From Escherichia coli (lineage in GTDB: Bacteria; Pseudomonadota; Gammaproteobacteria; Enterobacterales; Enterobacteriaceae), in assembly GCF_003334355.1 (NCBI RefSeq), contig NZ_QOWP01000010.1: DNA of 64,000 nucleotides. One strand, given 5' to 3'. Positions 161 to 52,743 of the stretch are shown here, one piece after another (positions within the stretch are counted from its first letter, which is position 1; the number at the start of each line of letters is the position of its first letter). The notes beneath the pieces are model-generated. The model made no database searches. It was not told the origin of the DNA and saw only the letters and a program-made list of their open reading frames with translations. The translations under genes and the position numbers were made by a program.

Positions 161-194
161 GAATAAAAAAGCGGCAACTCAATAAAGTTGCCGC
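161..194 (-). terminator. rho-independent terminator downstream of pflA
   Basis: Perfect 9-bp inverted repeat gcggcaact/agttgccgc (171-179 / 186-194); on the minus strand it is followed by a U-run (complement of aaaaaa at 165-170). Confidence 0.6.
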
Positions 195-206
195 TTTACG
201 GGGAAA

Positions 207-30657: not shown

Positions 30658-30688
30658 AAGGCGGCAGCAATGCCGCCTTTTCTTTTTC
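30658..30688 (+). terminator. mukB rho-independent terminator
   Basis: aaggcggca/gcaa/tgccgcctt perfect 9-bp stem followed by ttctttttcc. Confidence 0.65.
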
Positions 30689-35705: not shown

Positions 35706-35735
35706 AAAAAAAACAGGACCAAAGTCCTGTTTTTT
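35706..35735 (-). terminator. ompF rho-independent terminator (bidirectional-looking)
   Basis: aaaaaaa acaggac caaa gtcctgt ttttt: perfect 7-bp stem flanked by an A-run and a T-run. Confidence 0.65.
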
Positions 35736-37410: not shown

Positions 37411-37436
37411 AAAAAAGAGCCAGCAGGCGCTGGCTC
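37411..37436 (-). terminator. asnS rho-independent terminator
   Basis: aaaaaa gagccagc aggc gctggctc: perfect 8-bp stem; the A-run on + gives a U-run after the hairpin on the minus strand; 15 nt beyond the asnS stop. Confidence 0.65.
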
Positions 37437-37450
37437 TTTGAGGAAGAAAA

Positions 37451-43107: not shown

Positions 43108-43137
43108 CCGAATGGCGGCAATAGCGCCGCCATTCGG
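43108..43137. terminator. bidirectional terminator between convergent pepN and ssuB
   Basis: Perfect 12-bp inverted repeat ccgaatggcggc/gccgccattcgg around a 6-nt loop, filling most of the 42-bp spacer; T-rich on + side (ggatttt). Confidence 0.7.
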
Positions 43138-46810: not shown

Positions 46811-47378
46811 GGGCATTACCTCGCAGAGACAGAAGGTCAGGAACCTGAACATCGCGGCGGTGCAATGCCTGCCAGAAAGTTTCTAGCGCGGTATCAAGAC
46901 GGGTTTGCAGATTTGGCGTGAACTGGGGTCTGTGATGGTAATCAATTACTTGTGAGTCATCGGCAAACACGCCGTGCAGGATCTCCTGAGCTTTCAGTGC
47001 GCTTAAAACTGGTTTAAGGGCATAATCGACCGCCAGCAGATGGGCCACGGTACCGCCCGTCGCCAGCGGTAGCACCACTTTGCCTTGCAAAGCGCGTTCT
47101 GGCAGCAGGTCGAGCAGGGTTTTCAACGCACCGGAATAGGCGGCTTTATACACAGGCGTGGCGACAATCAGCCCATCGGCCTGTTGCAGCTGTTCGGTGA
47201 AGGTCTTGAGTGCCGGACTATCGAAACGAGCATAAAGTAGATCTTCCGGGGCGAAGTTTTGCAGATTCCAGTGATAAACCTCTACATCCAGGCCATTTAG
47301 TTTTTCCCGCGCATATTCCAGCAAGGAGCTGGAGCGAGAAGGAAAGCGAGGACTACCCGCCAGGGTGATGACACGCAT
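46803..47378 (-). CDS. ssuE: NAD(P)H-dependent FMN reductase
   Basis: 191-aa ORF; MRVITLAGSPRFPSRSS; overlaps the ssuA start by 8 nt. Confidence 0.93.
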   Translation of the reverse strand: MRVITLAGSPRFPSRSSSLLEYAREKLNGLDVEVYHWNLQNFAPEDLLYARFDSPALKTFTEQLQQADGLIVATPVYKAAYSGALKTLLDLLPERALQGKVVLPLATGGTVAHLLAVDYALKPVLSALKAQEILHGVFADDSQVIDYHHRPQFTPNLQTRLDTALETFWQALHRRDVQVPDLLSLRGNAHA

Positions 47379-47733
47379 ACTCTCTCCTTATAACCAATTG
47401 TTCTTTTTTTGTTAACATTGATAACAATTCGGTCAGTCTGTCGGAGAGACAAGAAAATTCCAAATATAAATTTTGTGTATCTTTTTCTGAAAATAAACTA
47501 AAGAAAGGGCTTTATATATCACGCATATTTATTTATTGGATAGTCATTAGATGTTGAATCAATGAATTACTCGTTCAGTTAATATTTAAATATTCATGAA
47601 ATCTATAAATTAAAGATTTGTCACTTATTGGATTTAGTATGCTTGATTTAAATGGCGGACAATTATTGTTATTATTAAGTCTAATGTCATTTAAAGGCAT
47701 TATCATATTTACGAAGAGATCAGGATGATAACG
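47379..47733. promoter_or_regulatory. divergent AT-rich control region between ssuE and elfA
   Basis: 355-bp strongly AT-rich spacer between divergent operons; the ssu promoter (sulfate-starvation control) and the elf promoter are expected here. Function is inferred. Confidence 0.4.
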
Positions 47734-48273
47734 ATGAAAAAAAGTGTATTGACGGCGTTTATAACTGTGGTATGTGCAACGTCCAGCGTTATGGCTGCTG
47801 ATGATAATGCTATCACGGATGGCTCAGTAACATTTAATGGTAAAGTTATTGCTCCAGCTTGTACCCTGGTAGCTGCGACGAAAGATTCCGTGGTGACTTT
47901 GCCAGATGTTAGTGCCACGAAGTTGCAAACCAATGGTCAGGTTTCTGGCGTGCAAATTGATGTGCCAATTGAATTAAAAGATTGTGATACTACCGTAACA
48001 AAAAATGCAACGTTCACCTTTAATGGCACTGCGGATACTACTCAGATTACAGCGTTTGCTAACCAGGCCTCATCTGATGCTGCTACAAACGTGGCCCTGC
48101 AAATGTATATGAATGATGGTACAACGGCCATCACGCCAGACACAGAAACTGGGAACATTTTGTTGCAGGATGGAGATCAGACGTTGACTTTTAAAGTTGA
48201 TTATATCGCTACGGGGAAAGCGACTTCAGGTAATGTGAATGCGGTAACAAATTTCCATATTAACTATTATTAA
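47734..48273 (+). CDS. elfA: fimbrial major subunit (chaperone-usher pilus)
   Basis: Trimmed to the ATG at 47734 (MKKSVLTAFITVVCATSSVMA signal peptide, 179 aa); fimbrial-subunit C-terminus. Confidence 0.85.
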   Translation: MKKSVLTAFITVVCATSSVMAADDNAITDGSVTFNGKVIAPACTLVAATKDSVVTLPDVSATKLQTNGQVSGVQIDVPIELKDCDTTVTKNATFTFNGTADTTQITAFANQASSDAATNVALQMYMNDGTTAITPDTETGNILLQDGDQTLTFKVDYIATGKATSGNVNAVTNFHINYY

Positions 48274-48304
48274 TAGAACTCATTAATTGTTTTATTAATT
48301 AGTA

Positions 48305-48341
48305 CCCCTCCAGTGTTCTGGAGGGGATATTCATATTTTTT
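48305..48341 (+). terminator. intercistronic hairpin after the fimbrial major subunit gene (attenuator-type terminator)
   Basis: Perfect 9-bp stem cccctccag/ctggagggg with loop tgtt, followed by atattcatatttttt; sits in the 82-bp elfA-elfD spacer. Confidence 0.55.
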
Positions 48342-48355
48342 AAGAGTGACTATTT

Positions 48356-49057
48356 ATGAAAACTTGCATAACAAAGGGAATTGTGACCGTAAGTTTAACG
48401 GCAATATTACTCAGCTGCTCATCCGCATGGGCGGCAGGTAAAGGCGGGATTGGACTTGCAGCAACACGTCTTGTTTATTCAGAAGGTGAAGAGCAAATTT
48501 CACTGGGTGTACGTAACACCAGTCCGGATGTTCCTTATCTTATTCAGTCATGGGTGATGACCCCAGATAATAAAAAATCAGCAGACTTTATTATTACACC
48601 ACCGCTATTTGTGCTGAATCCGGCAAATGAGAATCTGTTACGCGTTATGTACATTGGAGCGCCGTTGGCGAAAGACAGAGAAACCCTTTTCTTCACTAGC
48701 GTACGGGCAGTCCCTTCAACAACGAAGCGGAAAGAGGGAAATACCCTGAAGATTGCCACACAAAGCGTCATCAAACTTTTCTGGCGACCAAAAGGTTTAG
48801 CGTATCCCTTAGGCGAGGCTCCGGCGAAACTGCGTTGCACTTCGTCAGCTGACATGGTTACGGTCAGTAACCCAACACCTTATTTCATTACCCTGACAGA
48901 CCTGAAAATAGGTGGAAAAGTAGTTAAAAATCAAATGATTTCCCCCTTTGATAAATACCAATTTTCTCTGCCAAAGGGGGCCAAAAATAGCAGCGTAACG
49001 TATCGAACCATCAATGACTACGGGGCGGAAACGCCGCAACTCAACTGTAAATCGTAA
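48356..49057 (+). CDS. elfD: periplasmic pilus chaperone (PapD-like)
   Basis: 233-aa ORF with signal peptide and chaperone fold motifs. Confidence 0.85.
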   Translation: MKTCITKGIVTVSLTAILLSCSSAWAAGKGGIGLAATRLVYSEGEEQISLGVRNTSPDVPYLIQSWVMTPDNKKSADFIITPPLFVLNPANENLLRVMYIGAPLAKDRETLFFTSVRAVPSTTKRKEGNTLKIATQSVIKLFWRPKGLAYPLGEAPAKLRCTSSADMVTVSNPTPYFITLTDLKIGGKVVKNQMISPFDKYQFSLPKGAKNSSVTYRTINDYGAETPQLNCKS

Positions 49058-49081
49058 GCCGTCTTCAGTTAAGAGAGCGAG

Positions 49082-52743
<3,662 letters not shown>

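What the first reader, a model, noticed from the sequence alone, without database searches (positions are those of the whole stretch)
48305..48341. Strong hairpin plus T-run between the fimbrial major subunit gene and the chaperone gene
A perfect 9-bp GC-rich stem (cccctccag/ctggagggg) followed by a T-rich tract lies between elfA and elfD. Other chaperone-usher operons use a partial terminator here to make more major-subunit mRNA than downstream assembly genes, so this may set subunit-to-machinery stoichiometry.
Basis: inference. Interest (0 to 1): 0.3.

Follow-up and report, generated by a model that had tools for sequence, protein, structure and literature searches.

The report
Conserved RNA hairpin after elfA gene
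A strong, evolutionarily maintained RNA hairpin sits right after the major fimbrial subunit gene elfA of E. coli, most likely letting the cell keep more elfA message than message for the assembly genes, which is an ordinary and already familiar design in fimbrial operons.

Summary
A perfect 9-bp stem (48305-48313 / 48318-48326, loop TGTT, 7 G-C pairs) lies in the 82-nt elfA-elfD spacer of a K-12-like E. coli. It is not a chance feature: about 0.3 such G+C-rich hairpins are expected per 64 kb. It is single-copy and present in 3,994 of 5,426 complete E. coli genomes. A hairpin at the same place is kept in every orthologous or related operon I recovered, through changes on both sides of the pairs. 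The T6 run starts 9 nt after the stem, the tail scores far below three canonical terminators in the same window, and the pattern scan did not call it. No orthologue outside Escherichia has a T tract. Fimbriae are made when a foreign promoter is fused at the elfA start codon, so any termination must be leaky. My best reading is a hairpin that defines the 3' end of an elfA-only mRNA. It would act mainly as a barrier to 3' exonucleases, with at most weak termination in Escherichia. This would raise subunit over machinery, as in pap and malEFG. No 3'-end data exist for this silent operon. It is a new member of a known kind, of low interest.

The parts
47734..48273 (+). elfA (ycbQ), major fimbrial subunit gene. 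Stop TAA at 48271-48273, followed in frame by TAG at 48274-48276.
   Evidence: ORF list. RefSeq annotation of K-12. Window coordinate + 950134 = MG1655 coordinate.
48282..48303 (+). Weak A/U-only imperfect hairpin (AUUAAUUG / UAAUUAGU) just 5' of the main hairpin. It is present in the MFE fold but not in the centroid.
48305..48326 (+). Core RNA hairpin: CCCCUCCAG-UGUU-CUGGAGGGG, 9 perfect pairs, about -18 to -19 kcal/mol.
   Evidence: Structure kept with compensatory changes in orthologues.
48327..48341 (+). A/U-rich tail AUAUUCAUAUUUUUU with a T6 run at 48336-48341. It carries three low-information RNase E-like RN|WUU matches at 48327, 48333 and 48335. The block ATATT(C/G)A(T/C)AT is shared with Escherichia sp. 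E1V33 and C. freundii.
48342..48358 (+). elfD ribosome-binding region (AAGAG, 9-nt spacing) and ATG start at 48356.
48356..49057 (+). elfD (ycbR), periplasmic chaperone gene. It is the first of the downstream assembly genes elfD-elfC-elfG-ycbU-ycbV-ycbF.
   Evidence: Pfam PapD_N/PapD_C on homologues.

Best explanation
The hairpin is an RNA element that marks the 3' boundary of an elfA-only message within the elfADCG-ycbUVF transcript.

Shown here:
- It is a stable, single-copy hairpin, more stable than chance allows.
- It lies 31 nt past the elfA stop codon, outside the footprint of a terminating ribosome.
- It sits in the only long spacer of the operon.
- The structure, not the sequence, is maintained in related operons.

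Inferred mechanism: RNA polymerase mostly reads through. The polycistronic RNA is then cut in the A/U-rich stretch just behind the hairpin or further downstream, probably by RNase E. PNPase and RNase II degrade the elfD-and-beyond part but stall at the G-C stem. The elfA segment therefore outlives the assembly-gene segment, and ElfA is made in excess. In Escherichia, the A/U-rich tail plus T6 run may add a weak, leaky intrinsic termination with the same outcome.
For: - Stability: the hairpin is real and improbable by chance.
- Copy number: one per genome, in 3,994 of 5,426 complete E. coli genomes. The spacer is at least 95% identical in nearly all of them, although elfA alleles fall to 80-90% identity.
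- E. coli variants spare the helix: C48311T gives a G-U pair, and C48318A only opens the loop-closing pair.
- Conservation: every related subunit-chaperone spacer recovered has a hairpin at this place with different arms. These are Escherichia sp. E1V33, L018, L019, L020, L021, L033, C. freundii (syntenic with ssuE), two Pseudocitrobacter lineages and L034.
- Orthologue statistics: the best 40-nt hairpin against 300 shuffles gave p = 0.003-0.12 in nine spacers, Fisher combined 2e-8.
- Covariation: with arms put in register, 6 of 9 pairs change on both sides and 93% of cells pair. None of 500 shuffles reached the covariation score.
- The T tract is not conserved, while the hairpin is.
- Other operons: K-12 yadN, ybgD, yfcV, yraH and ygiL also carry a strong hairpin directly after the subunit gene. 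So do distant operons in Ursidibacter and Caballeronia.
- Literature: 3' stem-loops protect the upstream cistron in malEFG and many other operons, and papA mRNA carries an RNase-resistant 3' structure (PMC5927463).
- Read-through: Ptet fused at the elfA start codon of the Sakai operon gives fimbriae only on induction, so read-through is substantial (PMC7098969).
Against: - There is no transcript, 3'-end or half-life measurement for elf. The operon is silent in laboratory K-12 and absent from the held Term-seq supplements.
- Several single orthologue spacers are not individually significant (p about 0.11 for L009, L010 and L021). The orthologues are not independent samples.
- I set the register used for the pair count from each sequence's own hairpin, which favours pairing.
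- The RNase E motif matches are low-information in A/U-rich sequence.
- A hairpin of this strength with an A/U-rich hybrid could still terminate a useful fraction of transcripts, so the split between decay and termination is undecided.
Confidence: 0.55

Rival explanations
1. It is a leaky Rho-independent terminator. A fraction of polymerases releases the transcript in the A/U-rich tail after the hairpin forms, and this termination is the main cause of excess elfA mRNA.
For: A G-C-rich 9-bp stem with a tetraloop is followed by 10 T in 15 nt. An extended helix brings the T6 run to within 2 nt of the stem. The first 8 nt of hybrid, AUAUUCAU, contain a single G/C pair. The tail block and T run are kept in Escherichia sp. 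E1V33. Pap offers a precedent of partial termination between papA and papH (PMC6524683). The site is placed beyond the ribosome footprint.
Against: The terminator scan did not call it. The tail score nT is 1.39 and the discriminant about -13, against +7 to +17 for three canonical terminators of the same window (formula recalled from d'Aubenton-Carafa 1990, with modern energies). The T run is broken in one E. coli allele. The tract is lacking in Pseudocitrobacter, L018, L020, L033 and L034, where the hairpin persists. In every lineage the U count in the 8 nt after the stem is no higher than the spacer's composition gives.
Confidence: 0.25
2. The spacer is the precursor of a small stable RNA cut out of the operon transcript, like FimR2 from the fimA-fimI spacer, and acts in trans.
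For: MG1655 carries an annotated sRNA, FimR2 (b4838), at the equivalent position in the fim operon. FimR2 is RNase E-processed and needs its stem-loop for stability (PMC9723502). The elf hairpin is flanked by A/U-rich RNase E-like motifs.
Against: There is no sequence similarity to FimR2: local alignment score 6, reached by 205 of 500 shuffles. The loop UGUU has no GGA motif. There is no Rfam match. The sequence 5' of the hairpin, which would be the seed, is not conserved outside E. coli. No expression data exist.
Confidence: 0.08
3. The element has no RNA function. It is either a chance palindrome or a DNA-level feature such as a protein-binding inverted repeat, a recombination breakpoint or a remnant of a repeat element.
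For: elfA alleles are mosaic while the spacer is nearly invariant. This could reflect a recombination boundary rather than selection.
Against: The chance expectation is about 0.3 per 64 kb. The element is not repeated in the genome. Orthologues keep complementarity while changing sequence, which is the opposite of what a protein-binding site does. Unrelated arms occupy the same position in L020, L033 and L034.
Confidence: 0.06
4. It is a translational control element for elfD. The hairpin and tail would shape access to the elfD ribosome-binding site, either by a U-rich S1 enhancer or by long-range pairing of ACUC (48278-48281) with GAGU in the Shine-Dalgarno region.
For: The MFE fold of the spacer pairs 48278-48281 with 48345-48348. 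The T run lies directly 5' of the Shine-Dalgarno sequence.
Against: That pairing is absent from the centroid structure and has low ensemble frequency. It is not reproduced in E1V33. The distance from hairpin to start codon varies widely among orthologues.
Confidence: 0.06

Closest known systems
The papA-papH intercistronic terminator and stable papA mRNA of P-pilus operons
   Same: A stem-loop lies directly after the major-subunit gene of a chaperone-usher operon and before the minor-subunit and assembly genes. It gives more major-subunit mRNA than downstream mRNA, and the 3' structure resists RNases (PMC6524683; PMC5927463).
   Different: In pap, partial termination was shown experimentally, and a 5' RNase E processing step between papB and papA contributes. 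For elf nothing is measured, the U tract is sub-canonical, and there is no upstream papB-like cistron.
3' protective stem-loops in differential operon decay (malE-malF spacer; Dar and Sorek 2018)
   Same: A stable hairpin lies at the 3' edge of the first, most needed cistron. The structure is conserved across enterobacteria, and no U tract is required.
   Different: The malE-malF element is a repeated REP sequence, whereas the elf hairpin is single-copy. Most of the elements described by Dar and Sorek lie inside the downstream ORF, whereas this one is intergenic. Decay was not measured here.
FimR2, the RNase E-processed sRNA from the fimA-fimI spacer
   Same: It occupies the same position in a sister gamma-1 fimbrial operon of the same genome. 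It is a short stem-loop without a U tract.
   Different: There is no sequence similarity, no GGA loop, and no evidence that an elf-derived small RNA exists.
Canonical Rho-independent terminators
   Same: It has a G+C-rich hairpin with a short loop downstream of a stop codon, followed by a T-rich region.
   Different: The T run is displaced by 9 nt. The tail score is well below that of canonical terminators in the same window. The site lies inside an operon whose downstream genes must be transcribed through it.

Membership tests
Rho-independent (intrinsic) terminator | Stable G+C-rich stem-loop with a short loop | tested here: met
   9 perfect pairs, 7 of them G-C, tetraloop, about -18 to -19.6 kcal/mol.
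Rho-independent (intrinsic) terminator | U tract of about 7-9 nt starting 0-2 nt after the stem | tested here: not met
   The first 8 nt are AUAUUCAU (4 U), and the T6 run starts 9 nt after the stem. The site was not listed by the scan. nT is 1.39 and the discriminant about -13, against positive values for three canonical terminators in the window. The criterion is met only if a bulged, A-U-based extension of the stem is accepted.
Rho-independent (intrinsic) terminator | RNA 3' ends or transcript release at the site | not testable with these tools
   No elfA entry in the held Term-seq supplements. The operon is silent in laboratory K-12.
Pap-type intra-operon attenuation after the major-subunit gene | Stem-loop located between the major-subunit gene and the next gene of a chaperone-usher operon | tested here: met
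   The same layout is seen in five other K-12 operons.
Pap-type intra-operon attenuation after the major-subunit gene | Downstream genes are still transcribed from the same promoter (read-through) | not testable with these tools
   Literature only: the Ptet::ycb operon of O157 Sakai yields fimbriae only on induction (PMC7098969). No promoter-like site was found in the spacer.
Pap-type intra-operon attenuation after the major-subunit gene | Major-subunit mRNA more abundant than downstream mRNA | not testable with these tools
   No expression data were found.
3' protective (exonuclease-blocking) stem-loop of differential operon decay | Stable structure at the 3' boundary of the upstream cistron, conserved as a structure in related species | tested here: met
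   Fisher 2e-8; 6 of 9 pairs with changes on both sides.
3' protective (exonuclease-blocking) stem-loop of differential operon decay | Longer half-life of the upstream segment, dependent on the stem | not testable with these tools
   This needs rifampicin-chase RNA-seq or Northern blots.
FimR2-like spacer-derived sRNA | Sequence or motif relatedness to FimR2 (GGA-containing loop, shared sequence) | tested here: not met
   Local alignment is no better than shuffles. The loop is UGUU. No Rfam match.
FimR2-like spacer-derived sRNA | Accumulation of a processed small RNA | not testable with these tools
   No data.
REP/BIME or other repeated extragenic palindromes | Many copies per genome | tested here: not met
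   Median one place per genome in 3,994 genomes.

The most novel reading that the evidence does not exclude
The elfA-elfD hairpin, and by extension the hairpins that follow the major-subunit gene in most enterobacterial chaperone-usher operons, is released as a small stable RNA with trans-acting regulatory functions. FimR2 from the fim operon does this. Each fimbrial operon would then broadcast its expression state to other surface-structure programmes.
Probability: 0.08. Interest if true: 0.5.

Novelty: new member of a known kind. Interest (0 to 1): 0.2.

Why it matters
If confirmed, it would explain how the ELF (Ycb) fimbrial operon makes far more shaft subunit than chaperone and usher from one promoter. 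It would also add a clean, single-copy example to a general rule. In E. coli and its relatives, a structure-conserved hairpin, usually without a U tract, follows the major-subunit gene of most chaperone-usher operons. This points to mRNA 3'-end protection rather than classical termination as the common device. The practical value is modest. The hairpin should be kept, or deliberately removed, when elf operons are expressed from foreign promoters. It is also a candidate natural part for tuning ratios within operons.

Tried and rejected
- Rfam search of 47300-49300 at a permissive E-value gave only two chance-level hits, with E of 3.2 and 9.6, far below gathering scores.
- Published 3'-end maps (Adams 2021, TERMITe 2025, Dar and Sorek 2018): the held supplements have no elfA, elfD or ycbQ entry. 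Two other papers had no supplements held as text.
- MAFFT alignment of the orthologous hairpins with their loops did not put the arms in register. I therefore aligned the arms alone, with the register chosen by me. That makes the pairing percentage partly circular. The counts of changes on both sides are the informative part.
- Repeat-element idea (REP-like): rejected, because the element is single-copy.
- FimR2 homology: rejected.
- Internal promoter in the spacer: none found by the scan.
- The genome-contig scan returned few Escherichia species and not E. coli itself. I reached further lineages through protein homologues and their contigs instead. The organisms behind the Logan and ENA contigs L018-L021 and L033 are unknown. 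Orthology is uncertain for the relatives at 52% ElfD identity or below, apart from the syntenic C. freundii locus.
- The classical terminator discriminant was computed from a formula recalled from memory with modern energy parameters, so only the contrast with canonical terminators in the same window should be trusted.

Full report
**Where we are.** The window is E. coli, 99.9% identical to K-12 over this stretch. The finding lies in the elf (ycb) chaperone-usher fimbrial operon, downstream of the divergent ssuEA genes. The genes are elfA 47734-48273, elfD 48356-49057 and elfC 49082-51682, followed by elfG, ycbU, ycbV and ycbF. A window coordinate plus 950134 gives the MG1655 coordinate.

**The observation.** The sequence reads CCCCTCCAG (48305-48313), TGTT, CTGGAGGGG (48318-48326), then ATATTCATATTTTTT (48327-48341).
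- The stem is perfect, with 9 bp of which 7 are G-C.
- It folds at -19.6 kcal/mol with z = -4.1, and 0 of 200 dinucleotide shuffles fold as well.
- It is the only element present in the centroid structure of the whole spacer.
- In the 64-kb window I found 8 distinct perfect hairpins of at least 9 bp with loops of 3-8 nt. These give 15 hits when nested loop variants are counted. Dinucleotide shuffles gave 1.9 hits on the same counting, and 0.31 hits with at least 7 G/C in the arm. One falling by chance in an 82-nt spacer is very unlikely.

One detail matters for the interpretation. The T6 run begins 9 nt after the G-C stem. The 8 nt next to the stem hold 4 T, which is about the composition of this A/T-rich spacer. 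The terminator pattern scan did not list the site. Only a bulged extension by four A-U/G-U pairs brings the T run next to the helix.

**Is it a maintained structure?**

Within E. coli:
- The 61-nt segment around the hairpin is single-copy and present in 3,994 of 5,426 complete genomes.
- It is at least 95% identical in nearly all of them, although elfA itself occurs as alleles down to 80-90% identity.
- The variants seen spare the helix. C48311T, in the common 89% allele, gives a G-U pair. C48318A, in O157:H7, opens only the loop-closing pair. One allele interrupts the T run as TTTGTT.

Outside E. coli, I recovered related operons through a genome scan and through ElfD homologues. Each has a hairpin just after the subunit gene:

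| Lineage | Hairpin | Sequence 3' of the stem |
|---|---|---|
| Escherichia sp. E1V33 | UAUCCCCAUC-11 nt-GAUGGGGAUA | UUCACAUUUUUAU |
| L019 | CCCCUUC-11-GAAGGGG | AUGAUUUAAUUGCUU (no T run) |
| L018 | UCCCCCUUUUG-7-CGAAAGGGGGA | no T run |
| Pseudocitrobacter (L010, L011) | CCCCUUCA-9-UGAAGGGG | GGAGAGCC |
| P. vendiensis (L009) | A/U-rich hairpin | no T run |
| C. freundii (L022, syntenic with ssuE) | GCCCUUUUAU-9-AUAGAAGGGC | AUAUUGAUAUCG |
| L020, L033, L034 | unrelated arms at the same place | no T run |

- Against 300 shuffles of each spacer, the best 40-nt hairpin had p between 0.003 and 0.12 in nine spacers, with a Fisher combined p of 2e-8. The lineages are not independent.
- With the arms placed in register, 6 of 9 pairs show changes on both sides, for example U-A to A-U and C-G to U-A. 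93% of cells pair, and no shuffle out of 500 reached the covariation score. I chose the register, so the pairing percentage is partly circular.

The hairpin is thus selected as a structure, which argues for an RNA function and against a protein-binding palindrome.

**Is it a terminator?** I scored tails with the d'Aubenton-Carafa scheme. The formula is recalled from memory and used with ViennaRNA energies, so only the contrasts are meaningful.
- The elf tail scores nT = 1.39 with a discriminant of about -13.
- Three canonical terminators in the same window score nT = 3.5-4.8 with discriminants of +7 to +17.
- None of the elf orthologues passes. Several have essentially no U after the stem.
- Outside Escherichia the T run is absent, although the hairpin persists.
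- The element cannot be a strong terminator. A Ptet promoter fused at the elfA start codon of the O157 Sakai operon produced Ycb fimbriae only on induction. The chaperone and usher genes must therefore be transcribed through the hairpin (PMC7098969), and the scan found no promoter-like site in the spacer.
- A weak, leaky termination in Escherichia remains possible, because the hybrid after the stem is almost entirely A/U.

**Context in other operons.** I read the spacers after the major-subunit gene in eight other K-12 chaperone-usher operons.
- yadN, ybgD, yfcV, yraH and ygiL each have a strong hairpin right after the gene. Only yraH reaches a canonical terminator score.
- yehD has none, and sfmA has a long structured spacer.
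- The fimA-fimI spacer is annotated as the sRNA FimR2. FimR2 is a 35-nt RNase E-processed RNA whose stem-loop is needed for its stability (PMC9723502).
- Distant operons from Ursidibacter and Caballeronia also have a G-C hairpin without a U run after the subunit gene.
- The literature documents partial termination between papA and papH (PMC6524683).
- It also documents the RNase-resistant 3' structure of papA mRNA, and the general model in which a 3' stem-loop protects the upstream cistron after endonucleolytic cleavage (PMC5927463).

**Best explanation.** The hairpin defines the 3' end of an elfA-only mRNA species.
- I think the main mechanism is protection. The polycistronic RNA is cleaved in the A/U-rich stretch behind the hairpin, where three low-information RN|WUU matches lie at 48327, 48333 and 48335, or further downstream.
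- 3' exonucleases then remove the assembly-gene part and stop at the stem.
- In Escherichia some leaky termination may add to this.
- Both routes give more ElfA template than template for the chaperone, usher and minor subunits.
- The anatomy, the statistics and the conservation are shown. The cleavage, the exonuclease block and the effect on stoichiometry are inferred.
- Confidence is about 0.55. The pure leaky-terminator reading gets about 0.25.

**Other readings.**
- A FimR2-like small RNA is suggested only by position. There is no sequence similarity, no GGA loop and no Rfam match.
- A role in elfD translation rests on a low-probability long-range pairing that is not conserved.
- A chance or DNA-level feature is contradicted.

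**Novelty and interest.** I found no annotation of this element in RefSeq and no paper on it. The kind is familiar, however, so I rate it a new member of a known kind with low interest (0.2). The one observation with some wider value is that hairpins after the subunit gene in these operons usually lack U tracts. That point needs transcript data to matter.

Noticed in passing
L023 1675-1709 (MG1655 4543674-4543708): The equivalent spacer of the fim operon (fimA-fimI) is annotated as the small regulatory RNA FimR2 (b4838). It contains a short hairpin without a U tract.
   Followed up: partly
L026 1703-1799 (-), L027 5171-5229 (-), L029 5003-5083 (-), L030 4012-4090 (+), L031 2967-3025 (+): The K-12 operons yad, ybg, yfc, yra and ygi/yqi each carry a strong hairpin directly after the major-subunit gene. 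Only the yraH hairpin has a canonical U-rich tail. yehD-yehC has none.
   Followed up: partly
window 48327-48336; L007 about 2474-2483; L022 about 1471-1480: The block ATATT(C/G)A(T/C)AT directly 3' of the hairpin is shared by E. coli, Escherichia sp. E1V33 and C. freundii, although the stems differ. It could be an RNase E site or part of an extended helix.
   Followed up: no
L018 912-1099: In one 85%-identical relative, the spacer between the subunit and chaperone genes is 217 nt as called. It contains an extra, highly structured insert of unknown nature ahead of the conserved hairpin. The whole region folds at about -69 kcal/mol.
   Followed up: no
L034 about 1428-1461: The hairpin in the Dryocola-like relative is preceded by an A7 run. 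On the opposite strand it therefore reads as a canonical terminator, possibly a block to antisense transcription. The P. vendiensis hairpin (L009 2421-2452) is flanked symmetrically by T6 and A6.
   Followed up: no
L008, L012, L013: Very short contigs (241-766 nt) in assemblies labelled Colwellia sp. TT2012 and Amycolatopsis orientalis encode ElfD at 99% identity to E. coli. This is almost certainly E. coli contamination of those assemblies.
   Followed up: no
L006 3099-4723; hit H1: IS1 activity at the locus. In strain 2017.11.01CC an IS1B copy replaces elfA through part of a downstream fimbrial gene. Strain MB06021 has an IS1 within the matched elfA region.
   Followed up: no
E. coli genome collection: About 1,400 of 5,426 complete E. 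coli genomes have no match to the elfA-elfD segment even in the sensitive mode. The operon start is therefore absent or very divergent in a quarter of the species.
   Followed up: no
window 168-197, 13618-13641, 14006-14028, 30658-30679, 35708-35735, 37414-37439, 43108-43137: These are the seven other perfect hairpins of at least 9 bp in the window. Several are flanked by an A run and a T run, like bidirectional terminators.
   Followed up: no
window 48271-48276: elfA ends with tandem in-frame stop codons, TAA TAG.
   Followed up: no
window 48282-48303: A second hairpin made only of A-U and G-U pairs lies immediately 5' of the G-C hairpin. It is invariant among the E. coli alleles compared but not recognisable in other genera.
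   Followed up: partly
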